Part shown: positions 8,986-63,662 of the stretch, in pieces
How positions within the stretch are numbered: the stretch's first letter is position 1
Layout: each line of letters begins with the position of its first letter
NCBI GenBank assembly: GCA_024679065.1
Contig: JAGIQG010000003.1
Location: 127,720,001 to 127,784,000, forward strand
From: Sphyrna mokarran
Taxonomy: Eukaryota
Direction of reading: 5' to 3'
DNA: 64,000 bases
Made by a program: the position numbers and the translations under genes
The notes under the pieces: generated by a model
Database searches by the model: none
Told to the model about the DNA's origin: nothing
What the model saw: only the letters and a program-made list of their open reading frames with translations

Positions 8986-10627
8986 ATGATGTCATTATCA
9001 AGAGGTGTCACTGACACGTCAAGCAATTCTACTTCAGGTAAATGTATATAGTTTTATGATACACTCAAAGAGGCATTGCTCATTATCCAGCCATCTTGCC
9101 TCTGGGATCAACATCCATAAGAAAAATCAACTGTATTGAATTCCGTTAGTTATTCATTACTTTACAGAAATATTTATTACATTTATCCACATAACAAAAA
9201 AAATGCTTTAAAAGTATTCCATTGATAATAAAACACATTAGCATTTCATGGGGGGGAACACAGTAAGAAGTATCACAACACCAGCTTAAAGTCCAACAGG
9301 TTTACATGGGGGGGTTGTCATAGATAAATGTACCTTTTTTCTTTATAAAATGACGTTCCAAGAATGTTAACTCATTAGATTAAAGATCTGCTCACCAATC
9401 ATCCTTGTGATCAAAGACATCTATTGGCTCCTGATCCAATGGCTATATTTTAAAATCTCATCCTCCTTTTTAAAATCCTCCGTGGTCTCAAACATTCTAC
9501 CTCTGCAACTTGCTCCAGTCTTACAACCCATCAAAAACTCTTTACTATATTACAGCAGCAACTCAAAATATTTTAAACTGGCTGTAGAGCACTTTGGAGC
9601 ATCCTAAAGGTGTGGAAGATGTTACATAAATCTGAGTCTTTTTGTACATTTCCCATTTTTCTCACCTTCAGTCAAAATTCAGGTGCTTTTACCCTTCAAA
9701 AACAAAAACAGCGTCTTCAATCTAGTCAAACATCCCAAGTAGCTTCACAGACACGTGAACAAAACTAAACCCAAGACTCTATATTAGGGTGGACCAAAAG
9801 CTTGATCAACAGATTTTGAGAAAAAAGGCAAGGGAAAGCATTTCAGACCTTAAAGAAAGGTCATCAACCTGATATATTAAGTGTTTCTCTCTATAGATAC
9901 TGCTGGACTGGAGCATTCCCAGCTTTTTTTCTGGTTTTAAGCCTGGTGGCAGAGCAACAAAAATCCAGAAACTCAAGGGCACAAGTTGGAGGAGTCTAAA
10001 TTCTGAGGGTTTTGGGGCTGGAGCTTACACAGGTAGGGAGAAGCCAGAGCATCAAGACGTTTGAAAAAAGAGATGTATTGAGCAACTGGAGTAAACAGCA
10101 AAACTAAAATCCCTCTCATTTGAAGGTGCGTTGCTAAACCTACCTCTTGTACCACCCAATGTCTCTTCCTCTCTTTGACAATACCAATGTTTTTCACTTT
10201 TTTTTGAAAAAAATGAAACCAAGTCAGTGGTTTAGAAAAAAAACATCAAGTTAGGCAGCTCAAGTGAACAGACCGGGAATTTTTGGATCATGTTAAGTTG
10301 AATCTGAACGGGATAAAAGTTTAAGAACGAAAACAAAATGGCAGAAAATAAACAAGTGGAAATCTAAAAGGGATTAATCTGAAATTGGAATAATTAACAC
10401 AGCGAAATCCTATGCCGAATAAACTAGTATGAAAGCTCCCCCTGCAAATGTGAAGATATATTTAACTCATTTAGCATAAAAAACGACACAAATGGAAGAT
10501 AAAGCTTACAGGAGGACTTCATCCCGCTCCCTGTAGGCCTTACCCGATTAAAGCTGCTGAAACTTGGCGATCCTCAGCCGCCCGATTTTTCGCTATCGAG
10601 CTCTTCGATACTTTGCAGAGTCCTTAC

Positions 10628-10800
10628 CGCCGGCTGGAAAATTGGATACTCACTTCCCTCCCGTCGCTGGTTCCGCAGTAATCTCGCCACCCAAACGCGC
10701 TTAGCCGGCCTTCACCGCCTGTCAACAGCCCCAACCGCCATTACACTCACACTCTCTCTCACACACACACCCCAGTACAAACCGACAAGATGGCGACTGG
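10628..10800 (-). other. RBM5: Probable non-coding first exon of RBM5
   Basis: GC/CpG-rich segment ending in minus-strand donor CG|gtaagg (10622-10627), with an alternative donor gtgagt near 10648-10653 and a YY1-like CAAGATGGCG at about 10786-10795. Confidence 0.55.
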
Positions 10801-10900
10801 CAGCAGCTTAACCCGGCATGCACCCTGCTACAACATGCTGTCCTGATTGGCTCAAACCACAATTCCCCCTTTGCATTCTGGGAGTTGTAGTCCCATCGCC
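10780..10900 (-). promoter_or_regulatory. RBM5 promoter with ZNF143/THAP11 motif, CCAAT box and YY1 site
   Basis: Reverse complement of 10871-10894 is GGGACTACAACTCCCAGAATGCAA, a canonical ACTACAnnTCCCA-SBS motif. CTGATTGGCT (NF-Y) is at about 10843-10852 and CAAGATGGCG at about 10786. Confidence 0.7.
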
Positions 10901-11112
10901 TCAAAGCAAAGTAACGACAAGCAACCAGAGTTTGCATTAATATCGCGCCTTTCGACATACTCAGTTCAAGTTTACTCATCTTTGTAACAAGTAGGCTTAC
11001 ATTAACACTGCAGTGAAAATCAAAATGTAGAGATGCCGGCGTTGGACTGGGGTAAACTCGGTAAAGTTTTGCAACACCAATTTTAAATCCAACCAATTTA
11101 TTTGATAGTAAA

Positions 11113-11154
11113 TCCGCGAGCTTTCGACACTATGTTGTGCCTTCGTCAGGCAAA
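11113..11154 (-). ncRNA. Minimal type I hammerhead ribozyme (Penelope-associated)
   Basis: Reverse complement reads TTTGC-CTGACGA-A-GGCAC aacata GTGTC-GAAA-GC-TC-GCGGA: CUGANGA and GAAA core, stem II, stem I tttgc/gcgga, vestigial palindromic stem III. Confidence 0.75.
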
Positions 11155-11370
11155 TGCAGTGTTCTGATCTGCAGAGGCACTTTTATCCACACAGACAGTT
11201 ACAGATTGCTGACTAGAATGCGAATCCTTACATCTAACCTGCTATTCAAGTGTTAAAGTGGCTAACAATGTGTGTGAAGGAAATCCTGAGCATTGGTTAG
11301 AGAATTGTGTATTTTCTCCAGACAGCACAGTAAGTGAGGTTTTTTGCTAATCCAGGCAAGTTACGGGGGT

Positions 11371-13970
11371 TACAGATAGTGTGACATGAAGCCAAGATCC
11401 CTGTTAAGACCGTCCTCATGTGTGCGGAACTTGGCTATCAGTCTCTGCTCAGCAACTCTGCGCTGTCGTGTGTCACGAAGGCCCCCTTGAAGAACATTTA
11501 CCCGCAGGTCGGAGGCGAATGCCCATGACTGCTGAAGTGTTCGCCCACAGGAAGGGAACTGTTTTGCCTGGTGATTGTTGAGCGATGCTCATTCATCCGC
11601 TGTCGTAGTGTCTGCATGGTCTCCCCAATGTACCATGCTTCGGGACATCCTTTCTTGCAACGTATTAGGTAGACAACGTTGGCCGAGTTGCAAGAGTATG
11701 TACCGTGTACCTGGTGAATGGTATCCTCACGTTTGATTATGTCGTCCATGTCTATGATCTGGCATGTCTTGCAGAGGTTGCTGTGGCAGGGTTGTGTGGT
11801 ATTGTGGTCACCGTTCTCCTGAAGGTTGGGTAGTTTGCTGCGAACAATGATCTGTTTAAGGTTGTGCGGTTGTCTGAAAGCAAGAAGTGGGGGGTGGGGA
11901 TGGCCCTAGCGAGATGTTCATCGTCATCGATGACATGTTGAAGACTCCGGAGAAGATGTCGTAGCTTCTCCGCTCTGGGGAAGTACTGGACAACAAAGGG
12001 TACTCTGTCCACCTTGTCCCGTGTTCGTCTTCTGAGGAGGTCAGTGCGGTTTATCGCTGTGGCACGTTGGAACTGTCGATTGATGAGTCGAGCGCCATAT
12101 CCTGTTCTCATGAGGGCATCCTTCAGCGTCTGGAGGTGTCTGTCACGATCCTCCTCATCTGAGCAAATTCTGTGTATACGGAGGGCTTGTCCATAGGGAA
12201 TGGCTTCTTTAACGTGTCTAGGGTGGAAGCTGGAGAAGTGGAGCATTGTGAGGTTGTCTGTCGGTTTTCGGTACAGTGAGGTGCTGAGGTGACCGTCCTT
12301 GATGGAGATGCGTGTGTCCAAGAATGCAACTGATTCTGGAAAGTAGTCCATGGTGAGTCTGATGGCGGGATGGAACTTGTTGATATCATCATACAGTTGT
12401 TTCAATGATTGTTCACCATGAGTCCAAAAGAAAAAAATGTCCTCAATGTATCTAGTATACAACCTTGGTTGAAGATCTCGTGTAGTGAAGAAGTCTTGTT
12501 CGAACCTGTGCATGAAGATGTTGGCATACTGAGGTGCAAATTTGGTCCCCATGGCTGTTCCGTGTGTCTGGATGAAAAGCTGATTGTTGAAGGTGAAGAC
12601 ATTGTGGTCCAAGATGAAGCGGATGAGTTGTAAAATTGCATCCGGAAACTGGCAGTTGTTGGCATTGAGTACTGAGGCAGTTGCAGCAATACCATCGTCG
12701 TGGGGGATGTTGGTGTAGAGCGCCGAGACATCCATTGTGACAAGGAGTGTCCCTGGTTCAACTGCTTCATGCGTGCTGAGTTTCTGTAGGAAGTCCGTAG
12801 TGTCAAGACAAAAGCTGGGGGTTCTTTGTACAATGGGTTTCAGGATGCCCTCGATATAGCCGGAGAGGTTCTCACACAGGGTCCCATTGCCCGATACGAT
12901 GGGACGGCCGGGTATGTTTGCCTTGTGTATCTTTGGGAGGCAGTAGAGATCTCCAATGCGGGGAGTACGTGGAATGAGAGTCCGGAGGGTGTTCTGAAGG
13001 TCCGGATCAAAGGTTTTGATCAGAGTGTTGAGTTGACGAGTGTGTTCTTTGGTCGGATCCGCTGGTAACTGTCTGTAGTGTTTCACATTGTTTAGTTGTC
13101 GGTACACTTCTTCACAGTAGTCCGTTCTGTTCAGTATGACGGTGGCGCCTCCATTGTCTGCTGGTTTGATGACAATGTTGCGGTTGGTCTTAAGAGCACG
13201 GATGGCCTTGCTTTGTGCTTGGGTGATGTTCGGGACTGTCTTGTAAGTGCGGTTGATGAATCTGGTGTTCACGCACCTCCTGATGGCTTGGGCATACATG
13301 TCCAGTCGAGGGCAGCGGCCTTCCGGAGGAGTCCAATTGGATTCATTCCTCTTCGGTTGCTGCACTGCGGATCCCTCTGTCGGCTGTTCTTGTTCATTAG
13401 CTATCTCATTGAGTCTGCTATTGGCCTCTTGGGGTTTGTGGAAGAACTCACGCAGCCTCATTCGCCTGATGAATTCCTCTGTGCCCGCTGCAAGACTGAT
13501 GGGGTCCATTTTGGTGGTGGGACAGAAATTGAGCCCTCGGCTGAGAACTTCGATTTCCTCTGATTGAAGTGTGTAGTCTGACAGGTTAACAATGGACCTC
13601 CCTGCGGTAGTGTTGTTTTCTACTGTGGTGCCAAGAGAGGATTGGTTGTTGCTGGTGGCAATGCCGAGTTTTTCAAGTTTCCTGTTCTTGGTGTGTATGT
13701 AAATGGTGTAGTTTCTTTGTCTCTCTGCTTGGCGAAGTTTCGCATCTGATCTGCGTCCTGAGCGCAAGTTGAGAATATGTATTCCATTTTACTTTCCAGG
13801 GTGCGGCGTTTGCTATAGAGCTGGTGTATGAGGTGATTGAGGAGTGTGAGAGAGGTGCAACGGCAAAGCCTCTCAGCGTAGTCTGTGTTATAGGTTGACC
13901 TGAGTGGGTTCGTGATCTGTAGTCCCTTTGGTATCCTGTCTGCTTTCTTGCATCTCTGTAGAAACTTGAA
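11371..13970 (-). pseudogene. Penelope RT/GIY-YIG polyprotein, left arm (frameshifted)
   Basis: ORF 11752-13767 (RT), ORF 11498-11749 (GIY-YIG part) and an N-terminal frame within 13620-13970 (KFLQRCKKADRIPKGL). Frameshifts near 13720-13770, near 11890 (C-run) and near 11517. Confidence 0.85.
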
Positions 13971-13975
13971 TCCGC

Positions 13976-15985
13976 AGGGATTCGCAGTGCAGCAACCGAA
14001 GAGGAATGAATCCAATTGGACTCCTCCGGAAGGCTGCTGCCCCCAACTGGACATGTATGTCCAAGCCATCAGGAGGTGCGTGAACACCAGGTTCATCAAC
14101 CGCACTTACAAGACAGTCCCGAACATCACCCAAGCACAAAGCAAGGCTATCTATGCTCTTAAGACCAACCACAACATTGTCATCAAACCAGCAGACAAAG
14201 GAGGCGCCACCGTCATACTGAACAGAACGGACTACTGTGAAGAAGTGTACCGACAACTAAACAATATGAAACACTACAGACAGTTACCAGCGGATCTGAC
14301 CAAAGAATACACTCGTCAATTCAACACTCTGATCAAAACCTTTGATCCGGACCTTCAGAACACCCTCCGGACTCTCATTCCACGTACTCCCCGCATTGGA
14401 GATCTCTACTGCCTCCCGAAGATACACAAGGCAAACATACCTGGCCGTCCCATCGTATCGGGCAATGGGACCCTGTGTGAGAACCTCTCCGGCTATATCG
14501 AGGGCATCCTGAAACCCATTGTACAAAGAACCCCCAGCTTTTGTCTTGACACTACGGACTTCCTACAGAAACTCAGCACACATGGAGCAGTTGAACCAGG
14601 GACACTCCTTGTCACAATGGATGTCTCGGCGCTCTACACCAACATCCCCCACGACGATGGTATTGCTGCAACTGCCTCAGTACTCAATGCCAACAACTGT
14701 CAGTTTCCGGATGCAATTTTACAACTCATCCGCTTCATCTTGGACCACAATGTCTTCACCTTCAACAATCAGCTTTTCATCCAGACACATGGAACAGCCA
14801 TGGGGACCAAATTTGCACCTCAGTATGCCAACATCTTCATGCACAGGTTCGAACAAGACTTCTTCACCACACGAGATCTTCAACCAAGGTTATATACTAG
14901 ATACATTGAGGACATCTTTTTCCTTTGGACTCATGGTGAACAATCATTGAAACAACTGTATGATGATATCAACAAGTTCCATCCCACCATCAGACTCACC
15001 ATGGACTATTCTCCAGAATCAGTTGCATTCTTGGACACACGCATCTCCATCAAGGACGGTCACCTCAGCACCTCACTGTACCGAAAACCGACAGACAACC
15101 TCACAATGCTCCACTTCTCCAGCTTCCACCCTAGACACGTTAAAGAAGCCATTCCCTATGGACAAGCCCTCCGTATACACAGAATTTGCTCAGATGAGGA
15201 GGATCGTGACAGACACCTCCAGACGCTGAAGGATGCCCTCGTGAGAACAGGATATGGCGCTCGACTCATCAATCGACAGTTCCAACGTGCCACAGCAATA
15301 AACCGCACTGACCTCCTCAGAAGACGAACACGGGACAAGGTGGACAGAGTACCCTTTGTTGTCCAGTACTTCCCCGGAGCGGAGAAGCTACGACATCTTC
15401 TCCGGAGTCTTCAACATATCATCGATGACGATGAACATCTCGCTAGGGCCATCCCCACACCCCCCACTTCTTGCTTTCAGACAACCGCACAACCTCAAAC
15501 AGATCATTGTTCGCAGCAAACTACCCAACCTTCAGGAGAACAGTGACCACAATACCACACAACCCTGCCACAGCAACCTCTGCAAGACATGCCAGATCAT
15601 AGACATGGACGACATCATCAAACGTGAGGATACCATTCACCAGGTACACGGTACATACTCTTGCAACTCGGCCAACGTTGTCTACCTAATACGTTGCAAG
15701 AAAGGATGTCCCGAAGCATGGTACATTGGGGAGACCATGCAGACACTACGACAGCGGATGAATGAGCATCGCTCAACAATCACCAGGCAAAACAGTTCCC
15801 TTCCTGTGGGCGAACACTTCAGCAGTCATGGGCATTCGGCCTCCGACCTGCGGGTAAATGTTCTTCAAGGGGGCCTTCGTGACACACGACAGCGCAGAGT
15901 TGCTGAGCAGAGACTGATAGCCAAGTTCCGCACACATGAGGACGGTCTTAACAGGGATCTTGGCTTCATGACACACTATCTGTAA
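13976..15985 (+). pseudogene. Penelope RT/GIY-YIG polyprotein, right arm (5'-truncated, one frameshift)
   Basis: ORF 13912-15546 (RT) and ORF 15356-15985 (GIY-YIG, ending GLNRDLGFMTHYL). There is a +1 C in the run at about 15460-15465. Confidence 0.85.
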
Positions 15986-16200
15986 CCCCCGTAACTTGCC
16001 TGGGTTAGCAAAAAACCTCACTTACTGTGCTGTCTGGAGAAAATACACAATTCTCTAACCAATGCTCAGGATTCCCTTCACACACATTGTTAGCCACTTT
16101 AACACTTGAATAGCAGGTTAGATGTAAGGATTCGCATTCTAATCAGCAATCTGTAACTGTCTGTGTGGATATGAGTGCCTCTGCAGATCAGAACACTGCA

Positions 16201-16242
16201 TTTGCCTGACGAAGGCACAACATTGTGTTGAAAGCTCGCGGA
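16201..16242 (+). ncRNA. Minimal type I hammerhead ribozyme (Penelope-associated)
   Basis: TTTGC-CTGACGA-A-GGCAC aacatt GTGTT-GAAA-GC-TC-GCGGA. Confidence 0.75.
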
Positions 16243-16476
16243 GTTACTATCAAATAAATTGGTTGGATTTAAAATTGGTGTTGCAAAACTTTACTGTGAA
16301 AATCAAACCCAAGGAATTATATTATTCATTGCTCTGTCCGAAATTACACTTTTTTAAAGTTGTGCTGGGATGGCATGATGGCACAGATGTAGAGATGCCG
16401 GCGTTGGACAGGGATAAATTCAGTAAGAGGTCTGGCAGCACCAATTTTAAATCCAACCGATTTATTTGATAGTAAA

Positions 16477-16514
16477 TCTGCTAGCTTTCGGCGTTTATGC
16501 CTTCGTCAGGCGAA
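16477..16514 (-). ncRNA. Minimal hammerhead ribozyme
   Basis: Reverse complement reads TTCGC-CTGACGA-A-GGC ataaac GCC-GAAA-GC-TA-GCAGA. Confidence 0.7.
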
Positions 16515-16755
16515 TGAGGTGTTCTGGTCTCCAAAAGCACACATATCAGCACAGATAGTTTTTAGATTGCTGATTAGAATGCGAATCCTTACACCTAACC
16601 TGCTATTCGAGTCTTAAGGTGGCTAACAAAGGAACACTGAGCACTGAGGTTACAGAGATGTGTAATACACATCTCTCTAACCTCACTTCACATCTCTCTA
16701 AGACATCTTAGGTGTCTGTACTGATATGTGTGCTTTTGGAGACCAGAACACCTCA

Positions 16756-16793
16756 TTCGTCTGACGAAGGCACAAACGCTGAAAGCTAGCAGA
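16756..16793 (+). ncRNA. Minimal hammerhead ribozyme
   Basis: TTCGT-CTGACGA-A-GGC acaaac GCT-GAAA-GC-TA-GCAGA. Confidence 0.65.
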
Positions 16794-16847
16794 TTTACTA
16801 TCAAATAAATCGGTTGGATTTAAAATTGGTATTGCCAGACCTCTTAC

Positions 16848-17135
16848 ATGACACAGTGGTCAGCATTGCTACCTCACAGCGATAGGATCCCAGGTTCAAT
16901 TCTGGCCTCAGGTCACTGCTCACTATGTGGCGTTTGCACATTCTTCCCATGTCTGCATGGGACCTCTGGTTTCCTCCCACAGTCCAAAGATGTGTGGATT
17001 AGGTTGATTGGTTATGATAAATTGACCCTTAGTGTTAGGGGGATTAGCAGAGTAAATGCAAAGGGCTACTGGGATTGTGGTGGTACAGACTCAATGGGCC
17101 AAATAGCCTCCCCTATACTGTAGGGACTCTTTTAT
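16848..17135 (+). mobile_element. V-SINE/HE1-like SINE, head interrupted by the Penelope hairpin
   Basis: cacagtggtcagcattgct...ggttcaatt...gtttgcacattct...gtttcctcccacagtccaaagatgtg (V-domain core). Confidence 0.8.
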
Positions 17136-21048: not shown

Positions 21049-22194
21049 ATAGAACATAGAACATTACAGCGCAGTACAGGCCCTTCGGCCCTCGATGTTG
21101 CGCCGGCCAGTGGACCCTCTAACCTAAACTATTCCAATATCATCCATATGCCTATCCACGACCATTTGAATGCCTCCAAAGTAGGCGAGTCCACAACTGC
21201 TGCAGGCAGGGTATTCCACGCCCTCACCACCCTCTGTGTAAAGAACCTGCCTCTGACATCCGTCCTATAACTACCACCTCTTAATTTAAAGTTATGTCCC
21301 CTCATGTTGGTCATCACCATCCGAGGAAAAAGGCTCTCACTATCCACCCTATCCAGTCCTTTGATCATCTTATACGCCTCAATTAGGTCATGCGTAACCT
21401 TCTTCTCTCTAATGAAAATAACCTCAGGTCCCTCAGCCTTTCCTCATAAGGCCTTCCCACCATACCAGGCAACATCCTGGTAAACCTCCTCTGCACCCTT
21501 TCCAATGCTTCCACATCTTTCTTATAATGCGGCGACCAGAACTGTACGCAATACTCCAAGTGCGGCCGCACCAGAGTTTTGTACAGTTGTAACATAACCT
21601 CACGGCTCCTAAATTCAATCCCTCTACCAATAAAAGCTAACACACCATACGCCTTCTTAACAACTTTATCAACCTGGGTGCCAACTTTCAAAGAGCTATG
21701 TACTTGTACCCCAAGATCCCTCTGCTCGACAACACTATTAAGGGTCCTTCCATTAGCCCTATATTTCATATGCCTGTTATTCCTACCAAAGTGAATCACC
21801 TCACACTTATCCGTATTGAACTCCATTTGCCACCTCACGGCCCAGCTCTGCAACCTATCTATGTCCCTCTGCAAACTGTAACATCCATCCTCGCTGTCTA
21901 CAACTCCCCCCACTTTGGTATCGTCAGCAAATTTACTAATCCAACCCTCTACACCCTCATCTAGGTCATTTATAAAAATGACAAACAGCAGTGGCCCTAA
22001 AACAGATCCTTGAGGTACACCACTTGTAACTGCACTCCAGGTTGAATATTTCCCATCAACCACCACCCTCTGTCTTCTATCAGCTAGCCAATTCCTAATC
22101 CAAACTGCTAAATCACCTTCAATCCCATGCATCTGCACTTTCTGCAGTAGCCTACCATGGGGAACCTTATCAAACACTTTGCTAAAATCCATAT
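21049..22194 (-). mobile_element. Relatively young 5'-truncated CR1 LINE
   Basis: 282-aa ORF 21383-22231 has MDFSKVFDKVPH, SGVPQGSVLGPLLF, ISKFADDTK and VRPHLEYCVQFWSP. The 3' tail is tctatgttctat. Confidence 0.92.
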
Positions 22195-22244
22195 GCTTCC
22201 TTTTCAAGCTGAAAAGCTCCATACTGCACATGCTTCAAGTTTTT

Positions 22245-22862: not shown

Positions 22863-23394
22863 AAATGCATGTAAATAGAAGCATTCCGGAAAACAGGATG
22901 GAGAATCAGATGCAGTCTCCAAAGCTAAGATTCAAAAATACAAATAGAATGTACTACGTACAAAATGTGTCCCAGAATTAAATAACTTGGAAGCAGAACA
23001 ATGACCTCAATTCTGAGAGTGTCCTGTAAAATACAGAACAGTTGGCATCTATGAAATTTCCTGAAACTTAAAGGAATTTGCCAGGAATGAAGAACATTGG
23101 TGATGAGAAAAAAATTACATAGCCTGGCTTTACTTCCATCAGAATAGAGTAGGTCATATAACAGCTATATAAAAGTATTGACTGGCTTGGTTAGAACAAG
23201 GATTGATTTCTGTTAGAAGTCAATAACTGGATGAGGTCAGAGATTGAAAATACTTGGTGGAAGGATTCGAGAAAAGTTGGGGGGTAACTTTTTAACCAAG
23301 CAGGTAGCAGGAGTCTTGAATTTACTACAGAAGTGTGGCAGGAACTTTTTCTGCATTAAAAAAACACTTGAATGGGCATTTGACCTTAATCAGC

Positions 23395-24737
23395 AGGGTT
23401 ATGAATCGTATTTGAGTGAATGGCTCTCTTCCAGCTGGCAAGAACACAACGGGTTGAAGACCTTCCTGTGTGTTATGAATGGTATTTCTTACAAACATAT
23501 AAAACAGCAGAAGCACAAAAGCGGATGCTGGAATCTGAAACAAGGACAGAAAGTGCCAGAAAACCTCAGCCAGACTAGGCAGTAACTGTGCTAAGGTTTC
23601 AAGTCCATTTACATCAATTGAGCCCAGAATTGATGGTTGTATGCAGGTACAGGCTGAGGACCACCTCAGGAGTCTCTCATAATCCCTTCATTACTGTTTA
23701 TCCAAGATCCCTGGATAAATCTCAGCAGTTCTAGCAGCAGCTGTGTGTGTGTGTGTGAGAGAGAGAGAGACAGAGAGCTGACATTTTGAGTCTGGACGAC
23801 TCTTCATAGAATCCCTACAGTGCAGAAGGAGGACATTTGGCCTATTGAGTCTGCACTGACTCTCCAACAGAGCATTTTAACGAGGCCCTATCTTTGTAAC
23901 CCCACATATTCACCCCACCAACCTACTAATCTTGGGACCCCAAGGAGCAATTTAGCATGGTGAATCTACCTAACCTGTACATCTCTCGACAACGTTGTCA
24001 GGGCATTATTCGGATGCAGAAGTTTAAAGTTCATTTATTAGTGACATTGTAGGCTTACATTAACACTGCAATGAAGTTACTGTGAAAGTCACACTCATGT
24101 CCAGGTACACTGAGGGAGAATTTAACGTGGCCAATCCACCTAACCTGCACATCTTTGGACTATGAGAGGAAACCCACACTGACACAGGGAGAATGTGCAG
24201 ACTCCACACAGACAGTGACCCAACCTGGGAATCAAACTCAGGTTCCAAGTGCTGTGAACGGCAGTGCTAACCACTGTGCAATTGAGTCTGCTCCATCATT
24301 GAATAAGGTAGTGGTTGGGCTTGTGTAAGTGGACTTGAAACCTTAAGCACAGTTTCTGCCGAGGCCGGCTGAGATTTCCCAGCACTTTCTGTCTTTGTTT
24401 CAGATTCCAGCATCTGCAGTATTTTGCTTTTGTACTTCTGCTGCTGTTTTATACGTTTGTAAGAAATACCATTTACAACACAGAGGAAGGTCATTCAGCC
24501 CACTGTGTCCTTGCCAGCTGGAAGAGAGCCATTCACTCAAATCCGATTCACAGCCCTGAGGATCTCCAACACCACTCGGGAGTCTCTTATAATCCCTCCA
24601 CTGCTAAGGCTGTTTATTCAAGATCCCTGCATAAATCTCAACAGTTCTGGCAGCAACTGTGTGTATGTGTGTGTGTGTGAGTGTGAGTGAAAGAGAGAGA
24701 GACAGAGCTGACATTTTGAGTCTGGATGACTCTTCAT
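23395..24737. repeat. Composite local duplication with one inverted and one direct repeat pair
   Basis: Segment A (about 23395-23613) is inverted at about 24323-24557. Segment B (about 23654-23807, including (TG)n(GA)n) is directly repeated at about 24556-24737. Confidence 0.8.
24025..24280 (-). mobile_element. V-SINE-like SINE
   Basis: Reverse complement of the SINE consensus (gtgctaaccactgtg head, gtaggcttacattaacactgcaatgaagttactgtgaaa tail). Confidence 0.8.
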
Positions 24738-26649: not shown

Positions 26650-57219
<30,570 letters not shown>

Positions 57220-58799: not shown

Positions 58800-60575
58800 C
58801 TAATATGTTCATTAAGAACCCTCAGCGCTTAAACATTCTTATAGAGCAAAAATAATCTGCACCCATATTGTAGGTATTGTTCTAAGTAGTCTGCAGAGTT
58901 CAACAATAACCAGTTGTGTGAATTTAGTACTAAAAGTGTGGCATATTTGTGATGGAAAATTTTTTATTTCAGACATCAGACACCAACACTGGATGATGAG
59001 ACGGGTGGAGGTGTTAAGGGATTGGAATATCCAGGGTGAAAATGAGACAGTCAGAGCCAGCAAGGTGGAAACAGGAAGTGATTCAGGGAATTGAGACATG
59101 GACAACGATAAGGAAAGACAGAGGAGAAGAAATAGAATTGAGCTACGAGAAAACATTCAGCAGGATAGAAACTGGCCAAAACATTGAGTCAACCAGCACT
59201 TTTGTTTATGGATTATAGGCAAAAAGTAGAAGCAGGCTGTTTGGGTCCATGAGATTGGGGGTCATGGAAGGAAAATCTCCAAAAAAAGGGAGATGTCAGT
59301 GATGTTGATTGTGGAGTCAAGATCCACAGAGATAGCCTTAGAAAGATGGCTTCTGTTAAGCAGAACTCAATACACCAGGCAGGAGGAACAGCACTATCTT
59401 TGTCAGCAGTGTTAGGGTTGCATTGAGAGAACAGAATAAGGCAAATACAGATGGAGACAGGTTAGAGGTTACCTCTGTGGATCTTGACTCTACAATCAAC
59501 ATCATTGACATCTCCCTTTTTGGAGATTTTCTTTCCATGACCCCCAACTTCATGGACCCAAACAGCCTGCTTCTAGTTTTTGCCCAAAATCCATAAACAA
59601 AATTGCTGGTTGGCCCATTGTTTTGGCCAGTTTCTGTCCCGCTGAATATGTTTTCTCATAGAAATCATGATGTCCAATGTCATTTCAGCAGTTCTCAATA
59701 ATATACAAGGATAATAGGCCAATGGAAAAGGTTTCAGTGGAATGAGAACTTTGAAGATGGTAGAAAGTTTCATTACATCCCAAGGTATAGCGAACTAATG
59801 GCTAAAGTGGGCACGAAGGTAGAGGAAACAGAAAGTGACCGATAAACCTGAGTTTTCAGAAGGTATTTGATAAAGAAGCTAAAGAGATTCGCAATAAGGA
59901 CACATTAATCAGGGTCAGATAGCAGATTGAATGGAAGATGCCTAAAAAGAGAAGCCTCTCAAATCTGGTGAAATAATATAAAGATAATTCTAATTTTAAT
60001 AGATAGGCAGATATCGGGGTGCATAAAAATGCAGCAAGATAGAGTCTGAGTGGATGGCAAATGAAATTCAATATAGTTAGTTGAAATAAGAAACTACACT
60101 ACTGGGAAAGTAAGAAAGTAGAAAGCGCATGAACAGAAAACTGGGATTATAAACAGCTATTAAACGGCTAAAAGTAGTTGCTATGGCCAACGAGTGCAAA
60201 ATTGGAGGAAACAACTATTAGGGAGGTCTAGGAAACTGAACATCCTCTTCTTGAAAAAGAAACTGAACGAAAACCAGGTGGAACTGGACAAAATTATGAA
60301 GACCTTCATCAGACTGGATGGAAAGCCAGTTGCCATTTGTGAGCAAATCAAAATAAAGGAGCCATAAATTTAAGACGTGCACTGAGGAAGGAAATTGAAG
60401 AATTCAGAAAGCTGAAGGAACATTAAACTTGGTGCCACGGAGTGACACTGATACAGAGATAGAAACCAAAGCAAGAAAGACAGAAGACAAAATTTGCCAG
60501 AGGTCATTAGAGTGGGTGGAGGCGCATGGAGTATAAATTCCGGTATCGACCAGTTCGCCTGATTCTGTGCTACAG
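58800..60575 (+). mobile_element. Degenerate CR1-derived sequence containing an internal inverted duplication
   Basis: CR1-like remnants (tggcaaatgaaattcaat; 3' UTR gagtataaattccggtatcgaccagtt...ctgattctgtgct). Confidence 0.5.
59143..59661. repeat. Inverted repeat with arms of about 200 bp
   Basis: About 59143-59338 pairs with about 59465-59661 (e.g. gaagcaggctgtttgggtccatga / tcatggacccaaacagcctgcttc); spacer about 125 bp. Confidence 0.9.
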
Positions 60576-63235: not shown

Positions 63236-63343
63236 TTTTAACAATGACTCCACCAAAATGCTAATTATTATCCTTTTTTAATGGTTATCTTTTTTCTCCT
63301 ATTCAAACCCTATCAACATTCTCTAATGTGGATGTCTAACTGT

Positions 63344-63662
63344 CCTAGCTTGAAAATACACTGTCTATAACCACCATGACTTGACTGGATTTGCAAAATC
63401 TCACTAACTATCCTGGCTTGAGAGGATTCACACCTCTTTTACTTGTGCTTAATCCTCTCTTCACTCGCATTGTCTGCACCTGTAAAGACTTGATGACCCA
63501 TTAAGACTTGCATTCCAACCATTATTCTGTAATTGAGTTTGTGTCTGTTTATGCTGTTTGTGAACCCAACTCTTCACTCACCTGTAGCGGCAGCGCTCCG
63601 AAAGCTTGTGCTACCAAATAAACCTGTTGGACTTTAACCTGGTATTGTGAGACTTCTTACTG
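63344..63662 (+). mobile_element. Penelope 3' UTR/pLTR fragment with a broken hammerhead
   Basis: gcattccaaccattat...cactcacctg...gcagcgctccgaaagcttgtg...caaataaacctgttggactttaacctggt...gacttcttactg resembles the ends of the other Penelope elements; the CTGANGA core is deleted. Confidence 0.7.

What the first reader, a model, noticed from the sequence alone, without database searches (positions are those of the whole stretch)
11025..16307. 5.3-kb Penelope palindrome: two divergent RT/GIY-YIG copies bounded by one TSD, with a ribozyme at each end
Seen: two arms of about 2.3 kb in head-to-head orientation with 3' ends outward, a 600-bp spacer, one 12-bp flanking direct repeat (GTGAAAATCAAA) and a 36-nt tail on the left end only. 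Many differences between arms are CpG transitions (ccgacc/ctgacc, accgca/accaca, ccgtgc/ctatgc), which points to a real methylated locus rather than a fold-back read artefact. Established: Penelope elements form inverted partial repeats with short 3' tails and carry minimal hammerheads. Inference: a single insertion built both arms, either by priming both ends of a break or by cDNA fold-back. Here nearly the whole coding region is mirrored, not only the pLTR.
Basis: partly seen in the sequence, partly recalled or inferred. Interest (0 to 1): 0.8.

Follow-up and report, generated by a model that had tools for sequence, protein, structure and literature searches.

The report
Back-to-back Penelope-type retrotransposon insertion
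This is a real but ordinary, now broken, jumping gene in a shark-like genome that inserted as two back-to-back copies, a layout already known as typical of its family, here with an unusually long second copy.

Summary
Arms at 11061-13376 (-) and 13976-16294 (+) are 98.0% identical with 3' ends outward, bounded by one 12-nt duplication; a 36-nt tail lies on the left only, and each arm has a minimal hammerhead motif. Corrections: the 600-bp spacer is the left copy's own N-terminal ORF, so about 75% of the coding region is mirrored; both arms are frameshifted; the CX4CxxC linker makes it Neptune/Nematis-type, not Penelope/Poseidon; the hammerheads are motifs only. Equal, near-neutral decay of both arms, CpG bias and unmirrored flanks support one real insertion. 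The layout (inverted 5'-truncated copy, tail at one end, inverted repeats of variable, sometimes large size) is described as typical of Penelope-like elements, and two more insertions in this window have the same plan. Most likely mechanism (about 0.5): both staggered target ends primed cDNA, one at each of the two known RT start sites, and the cDNAs were joined by snap-back. Fold-back of one cDNA remains close (about 0.33). Not novel as a structure; useful as one data point for an open mechanistic question.

The parts
11013..11024 (+). Target-site duplication, left copy (GTGAAAATCAAA)
   Evidence: Only two occurrences in the window
11025..11060 (-). 36-nt PLE tail, present on the left arm only; 3' strand of a predicted terminal stem-loop
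   Evidence: same tail on the left arms of insertions B and C; fold z=-0.95, not exceptional
11061..11369 (-). 3' UTR / pLTR region of the left copy
   Evidence: Between the stop codon at 11370-11372 and the tail
11112..11155 (-). Minimal type I hammerhead motif, left arm; predicted cleavage after 11118
   Evidence: Core, helix II 5 bp, helix I 6 bp, palindromic AGCU; activity not tested
11370..13970 (-). Left copy ORF, residues 27-880 of an 881-aa homologue: N-terminal region, RT (RVT_1 about 12370-12774), CX4CxxC linker, GIY-YIG (about 11558-11677). Broken by frameshifts near 13730-13740, 11896 and 11516; DKG motif reads DNG
13377..13975 (-). The '600-bp spacer': unmirrored 5' part of the left copy's ORF
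   Evidence: tblastn with P0004 and P0006
13968..13983 (+). Inversion junction: 6-bp hairpin (13968-13973 with 13978-13983) and an 8-nt templated duplicate (13970-13977) whose exact complement lies at 13365-13372
   Evidence: (z=-2.6, 2 of 200 shuffles)
13976..16295 (+). Right arm: inverted, 5'-truncated, tail-less copy. ORF from about residue 214-221 to the stop at 15983-15985; RT about 14587-14982, GIY-YIG about 15677-15799; frameshift near 15456
16200..16242 (+). Minimal hammerhead motif, right arm; G10.1-U11.1 instead of G-C, helix I 5 bp; predicted cleavage after 16237
   Evidence: minimum-energy fold is not the hammerhead
16296..16307 (+). Target-site duplication, right copy
16386..16847 (.). 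Insertion B, same family and plan: tailed left arm to about 16664, tail-less 133-nt right arm, 8-9-nt duplication with one mismatch, snap-back footprints at the junction
32420..32655 (.). Insertion C, same plan: tailed left arm, tail-less right arm, hairpin centre without spacer, 7-nt exact duplication
63322..63662 (+). Insertion D: solo tail-less copy with a 7-nt duplication and no inverted partner
9257..9304 (-). Insertion E: solo 48-nt fragment ending inside the tail, 10-nt duplication

Best explanation
A single retrotransposition event of a Neptune/Nematis-type Penelope-like element made both arms (about 0.93 on its own). Most likely route: the GIY-YIG endonuclease nicked both strands 12 nt apart; the top-strand 3' end primed cDNA at the outer RT start site (giving the tailed 2.95-kb left copy), the bottom-strand 3' end primed cDNA at the inner start site 36 nt further in (giving the tail-less 2.32-kb right arm); both stopped short of the 5' end and were joined through snap-back and microhomology; repair filled the second strands and left one 12-nt duplication. 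The copy lacked the first 26 codons and an upstream pLTR, so it was probably dead on arrival and has decayed since. Shown here: anatomy, polarity, equal decay. Shown elsewhere in vitro: two-strand cleavage and extension, two start sites. Inferred: that they act together at one site, and the join.
For: One duplication abuts both outer ends; read from each copy of it, the inserted strand is antisense (cDNA) sequence starting at a PLE 3' end. Arms decayed equally: amino-acid changes polarised with homologues are 10 right, 8 left, 2 unresolved of 20 codons; 15 synonymous and 21 non-synonymous differences, dN/dS 0.63, not different from neutral (p=0.21); all polarised changes 17 right to 12 left of 29, p=0.46. 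The 4 tail-less ends (A, B, C, D) stop within 2 nt of the same point and the 3 tailed ends within 1 nt of another. D is a solo tail-less copy with a 7-nt duplication and no inverted partner within 6 kb (score 27, shuffled mean 28), so the inner point can start an insertion without a hairpin. Anole Poseidon protein cleaves and extends both strands and starts RT at two sites that bracket the tail (PMC11167929).
Against: No test here separates it from fold-back. In vitro no difference in start site between strands was seen, which predicts tail/tail and no-tail/no-tail pairs too, yet 3 of 3 palindromes here are tail/no-tail. In A and B the tailed arm reaches further 5' and in C both end together, as fold-back predicts; dual priming explains this only if both cDNAs came from one RNA. 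B's junction holds a 20-nt snap-back that only the tailed arm's cDNA could template. The in vitro work is on a different clade. D's 7-nt duplication is weak alone (864 of 19,975 random zone pairs reach 7 nt). Three palindromes is a small sample.
Confidence: 0.5

Rival explanations
1. Single event by fold-back: one TPRT cDNA started at the tail, ran 2.95 kb, snapped back onto itself about 600 nt behind its 3' end and was copied back; the copy ended at the tail stem-loop (stall or endonuclease cut) and joined the second target end.
For: Tailed arm reaches as far 5' or further in 3 of 3 palindromes; hairpin and 8-nt templated duplicate at A's junction, 20-nt snap-back plus 13-nt duplicate at B's, hairpin centre at C's. 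Junction palindromes in rotifer PLEs were read as self-priming (PMC3846280); the tail was ascribed to endonuclease resolution of an intermediate (PMC8557442).
Against: It needs a second mechanism to stop exactly at the inner point, which in vitro is an RT start site; solo tail-less copy D exists. Snap-back footprints also arise when two ends are joined by synthesis-dependent microhomology repair (recalled, no call).
Confidence: 0.33
2. A short inverted pLTR made at insertion was later lengthened, or the second arm arose later by inverted duplication or gene conversion between arms.
For: 15 of 44 substitutions fall in the inner 350 bp, mostly derived in the right arm (scan p=0.06; polarity breakpoint p=0.08); CpG-rule polarity was 13 right to 3 left (p=0.02).
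Against: Neither cluster test is significant; homologues re-polarise 2 of the 13 as gains in the left arm; overall polarity is even; the duplication abuts the right arm at the family's standard tail-less end.
Confidence: 0.07
3. Two independent insertions, the second landing in the 5' end of the first in opposite orientation.
For: The family is frequent here (5 insertions in 64 kb), and anole Poseidon can nick its own pLTR.
Against: No second duplication at the junction; one shared duplication at the outer ends; differences look like neutral decay, not selection between two active lineages; the same plan recurs in B and C.
Confidence: 0.05
4. Assembly or fold-back read artefact.
For: Long palindromes are hard to assemble (PMC8557442); the two indels between the arms sit in or beside short base runs, as read errors do. 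No reads were available.
Against: The mirror stops before the tail and flank; 10400-11012 has no mirror on the right; a direct, not inverted, 12-mer follows the right arm; 38 of 44 substitutions are transitions with 7-fold CpG enrichment.
Confidence: 0.03

Closest known systems
Canonical C-terminal EN+ Penelope-like elements, Neptune/Nematis type (PMC8557442, passages seen)
   Same: Single ORF with RT, DKG motif, CX2-5CxxC linker, GIY-YIG with two internal cysteines; pLTR with hammerhead; inverted 5'-truncated copy at the 5' end; 30-40-bp tail at one end.
   Different: No direct partial-tandem pLTR between the two copies; second arm of 2.3 kb. Neptune versus Nematis not resolved.
Drosophila virilis Penelope, common form (PMC2377424 Fig. 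1C legend; PMC3681739, passages seen)
   Same: Large inverted terminal repeats of variable size; short 34-bp terminal repeat; long inverted repeats reported.
   Different: Penelope/Poseidon clade lacks the linker finger; the fly form has a partial tandem that supplies a promoter and is active, this copy is not.
Adineta vaga Pen2a / Pen2 insertions (PMC3846280, passages and Discussion seen)
   Same: Inverted pLTRs, one 9-10-bp duplication around the whole insert, 31-bp tail on one pLTR, palindromes at the junction.
   Different: Inverted part there is about 180-220 bp.
Anolis carolinensis Poseidon PAc (PMC11167929, main text read)
   Same: Tail bracketed by two end points in a stem-loop downstream of a hammerhead.
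   Different: Different clade; the paper does not model inverted arms in the text read.
Shark PLE proteins P0001-P0003, P0009 (Scyliorhinus, Heptranchias, Mustelus)
   Same: 80-84% identical in the best local alignment.
   Different: Protein only; their genomic layout could not be seen.

Membership tests
Penelope-like element (EN+) | RT followed by C-terminal GIY-YIG in one ORF | tested here: met
   RVT_1 and GIY-YIG above Pfam cut-offs in both arms; colinear with full-length homologues across frameshifts
Penelope-like element (EN+) | CCHH motif with two cysteines between GIY and YIG | tested here: met
   VVYLIRCKKGCPEAWYIG in both arms; later histidines visible in the translation
Penelope-like element (EN+) | DKG motif upstream of RT | tested here: met
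   DKG in the right arm, DNG (derived) in the left
Penelope-like element (EN+) | pLTR in direct or inverted arrangement, 30-40-bp tail at one end, variable duplication | tested here: met
   Inverted, 36-nt tail left only, 12-nt duplication
Penelope-like element (EN+) | RT groups with PLEs and telomerase in a phylogeny | not tested
   No labelled reference set was at hand; no tree built
Penelope/Poseidon clade | No CX2-5CxxC linker between RT and EN | tested here: not met
   CHSNLCKTC present in both arms; 87 of the 88 homologues (of 120) with the cysteine pair also carry it (definition)
Neptune/Nematis clades | CX2-5CxxC linker present, EN C-terminal | tested here: met
Neptune/Nematis clades | Phylogenetic placement in Neptune versus Nematis | not tested
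   No reference sequences with clade labels
Minimal type I hammerhead of PLEs | CUGAnGA and GAAA core, base between 9 and 10.1, palindromic 15.2-16.2, helices I and II | tested here: met
   Both arms; descriptor written after seeing the hits finds 5 of the 6 cores and 0 in 200 shuffles (features from PMC4209133)
Minimal type I hammerhead of PLEs | G10.1-C11.1 pair | tested here: inconclusive
   G-C in the left arm, G-U in the right; 4 of 6 cores G-C
Minimal type I hammerhead of PLEs | Covariation in helices | tested here: inconclusive
   88.9% of cells paired, 39 of 500 shuffles as high, 6 sequences only; no Rfam match
Minimal type I hammerhead of PLEs | Self-cleavage | not testable with these tools
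   Needs an in vitro assay, as dimer and with protein

The most novel reading that the evidence does not exclude
The one-sided tail is obligatory because both arms are copied from one RNA: the inner-primed cDNA goes first, the outer-primed cDNA follows and displaces it, so every palindrome pairs a tailed arm with a tail-less arm and the tailed arm always reaches at least as far 5'. All 3 palindromes in this window fit. If this density holds genome-wide, shark genomes hold enough such insertions to settle how PLE inverted repeats and tails arise by counting arm classes and private errors.
Probability: 0.25. Interest if true: 0.6.

Novelty: new member of a known kind. Interest (0 to 1): 0.27.

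Why it matters
As a structure it matters little: it is the documented inverted form of a Penelope-like insertion. Its use is as a clean, long example. How PLEs make inverted arms and a one-sided tail is still described as undefined (PMC8557442), and 2.3 kb of paired arms carry enough sites to test same-template against two-template origin in younger copies. A 2.3-kb, 98% palindrome 130-240 bp from a CpG-rich promoter-like region could also yield long double-stranded RNA if read through, as Penelope inverted regions do in flies (PMC3681739); that is inference and untested.

Tried and rejected
Rfam at E up to 10 on 10900-17000 gave 10 sub-threshold matches, none a hammerhead; the whole window at gathering scores gave 0. 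Minimum-energy folds of the six cores are no better than shuffles (z from -0.46 to +0.45) and 2 of 6 do not fold as hammerheads. The first pair count used a helix II shifted by one column and was redone. A scan of bacterial and archaeal genomes returned 3 loci of 1.1-1.5 kb without flanks, useless for architecture. Cluster membership of the homologues could not be looked up, so no closer relatives or accessions were obtained. No eukaryotic DNA collection was available, so the family consensus, the empty orthologous site, reads and genome-wide counts stayed unchecked; viral and metagenome contigs were not searched. Unequal age of the arms was considered after the 13:3 CpG asymmetry and dropped after polarising with homologues. 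A shared frameshift at birth in the C-rich tract near 11896/15456 was considered as a sign of fold-back; it is as parsimonious as two independent changes and decides nothing. Five literature searches listed no paper on shark PLE palindromes or on dual priming as their cause; the library lacks most subscription papers, including the original Penelope structure papers, so this is weak.
Full report
Observation. Self-comparison of the window gives one long inverted pair, 11061-13376 and 13976-16294, 97.97% identical over 2319 columns. The 12-mer GTGAAAATCAAA occurs only at 11013 and 16296, touching both outer ends; 2 of 19,975 random pairs of 30-nt zones share as much. The 36 nt at 11025-11060 have no mirror. 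The arms differ by 38 transitions, 6 transversions and 2 indels; 16 substitutions lie at CpG positions (16 of 184 against 28 of 2135, p=7.5e-8). CpG positions were defined by either arm, which inflates the ratio a little. The flanks are not mirrored. A fold-back read would mirror the tail and flank and would not show this mutation spectrum, so the locus is very probably real; no reads were available.

What it is. Both arms match RVT_1 and GIY-YIG. The best homologues are shark proteins at 80-84% identity (1015 hits, 120 listed), so the host is probably a shark. Against an 881-aa homologue the left copy covers residues 27-880 and the right arm starts near residue 214-221. The 600-bp spacer is therefore the left copy's own 5' ORF: the structure is one nearly full-length copy (2.95 kb, tailed) joined at its 5' end to an inverted copy (2.32 kb, tail-less), with about 75% of the ORF mirrored. 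The left copy has three frameshifts and the right one; there is no upstream direct pLTR. A CX4CxxC linker precedes the endonuclease in both arms and in 87 of 88 scorable homologues; by the definition in PMC8557442 (passages) this excludes Penelope/Poseidon and points to Neptune or Nematis. No tree was built.

Hammerheads. A sequence pattern found 6 cores in the window, all in three inverted pairs. A stricter descriptor, written after seeing them, finds 5 of the 6 and none in 200 shuffles. They carry the features listed for PLE minimal hammerheads in PMC4209133 (parts 1-2 of 4 read). Rfam has no match, covariation is weak (39 of 500 shuffles as high), and the right-arm copy has G-U at the conserved 10.1-11.1 pair. 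The two motifs are on opposite strands, so one transcript cannot hold both in sense to form the dimer such motifs are thought to need (inference). Activity is untested.

One event. Of 36 coding differences, 15 are synonymous and 21 not (dN/dS 0.63, p=0.21 against neutral); of 20 changed codons, homologues mark 10 as derived in the right arm, 8 in the left, 2 unresolved. Over the 29 of 44 substitutions I could polarise, the split is 17 to 12 (p=0.46). Against this, the CpG rule alone gave 13 to 3 (p=0.02; 2 of the 13 were later re-polarised), and 15 substitutions cluster in the inner 350 bp (scan p=0.06; polarity breakpoint p=0.08). I cannot explain that cluster; it may be chance, patchy conversion or lower methylation of the arm beside the CpG-rich region at 10400-10800.

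Other copies in the window. Searching with the tail and the end found 5 insertions of the family. B (16386-16847) and C (32420-32655) repeat the plan: tail on one arm, none on the other, one short duplication. D (63322-63662) is a solo tail-less copy with a 7-nt duplication and no inverted partner within 6 kb; E (9257-9304) is a solo fragment ending in the tail. The 4 tail-less ends coincide within 2 nt and the 3 tailed ends within 1 nt. The tailed arm reaches further 5' in A and B and equally far in C. All three junctions show hairpins or short templated duplicates.

Mechanism. Read from each copy of the duplication, the inserted strand is cDNA-sense starting at a PLE 3' end, as expected if both 3' overhangs of a 12-nt staggered cut were extended. 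In PMC11167929 (abstract, main text and start of methods read; supplements not seen, and Fig. S2 bears on the tail mapping) purified anole Poseidon protein cleaves and extends both strands and starts RT at two sites that bracket the tail. With solo copy D this favours dual priming (0.5). Fold-back of one cDNA (0.33) explains equally well that the tailed arm is never shorter and that junctions carry snap-back footprints, and self-priming was proposed for rotifer PLEs (PMC3846280, passages and Discussion). Dual priming on one RNA with strand displacement would satisfy both sets of facts; that is my inference and the most novel reading left open. Later lengthening (0.07), two insertions (0.05) and artefact (0.03) are unlikely.

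Comparison and novelty. [quoted passage not shown] PMC2377424 describes D. virilis copies flanked by large inverted repeats that vary in size (passages); PMC3681739 and PMC3136932 report long inverted repeats as a source of siRNA (passages). PMC8969392, PMC12910113 and bioRxiv 10.64898/2026.07.22.740005 were seen as passages and added nothing decisive. I found no stated maximum arm length, so whether 2.3 kb is extreme is unknown; 5' truncation points vary, and a long arm is the expected upper tail. Five searches listed no paper on this structure in sharks, within a library that lacks most subscription journals.

Verdict. Real, correctly seen, ordinary in kind: a new member of a known family in a known arrangement. 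Interest 0.27.

Noticed in passing
window 10400-10900: CpG-rich promoter-like region (CpG observed/expected about 1.0 against 0.34 for the window) ending about 130 bp left of the insertion, with a CCAAT box, motifs I recall as ZNF143/THAP11-type (10891, -) and YY1-type (10787), and a possible minus-strand splice donor at 10648. Gene not identified.
   Followed up: partly
window 28600-35200 (-): Exons with OCRE, DUF7066 and G-patch Pfam matches; the peptides look like an RBM5/RBM10-type gene (name recalled, not from a call).
   Followed up: partly
window 31732-32000 and 32722-32973, part again at 30449-30527: A roughly 270-bp segment with the end of an exon and its donor site is duplicated at 84% identity in that gene; insertion C lies between the two copies. 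The thrice-repeated part has box C/D-like words, but Rfam gave no match.
   Followed up: partly
window 23394-23613 and 24324-24558: Another inverted pair, 235 bp at 84%, with a SINE-like repeat between the arms; both arms hold a remnant resembling a hammerhead helix II and GAAA. Possibly an old palindromic PLE of a second family; no duplication found.
   Followed up: partly
window 59143-59338 and 59466-59661: Inverted pair of 198 bp at 89% with a 127-bp spacer, no similarity to this PLE family, possible 8-nt duplication with one mismatch. Unexplained.
   Followed up: no
window 10981-11024 and 16291-16307: The target site resembles the tail of the SINE-like repeat seen at 24038-24097; the right arm's last bases plus the duplication match that tail for 11 nt, hinting at microhomology at the tail-less end.
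   Followed up: partly
window 13976-14325: 15 of the 44 substitutions between the arms lie in the inner 350 bp, mostly derived in the right arm (scan p=0.06).
   Followed up: yes
window 16386-16847: Insertion B lies only 78 bp right of the main insertion, inside the 5' end of a SINE-like repeat; all three palindromes carry the tail on the left arm.
   Followed up: partly
window 21386-22234 (-): RT fragment of another retrotransposon (RVT_1, E=2.9e-21).
   Followed up: no
L001, L002, L003: Three short contigs (1.1-1.5 kb) in bacterial assemblies encode relatives of this RT at 29-58% identity, probably eukaryotic contamination.
   Followed up: no
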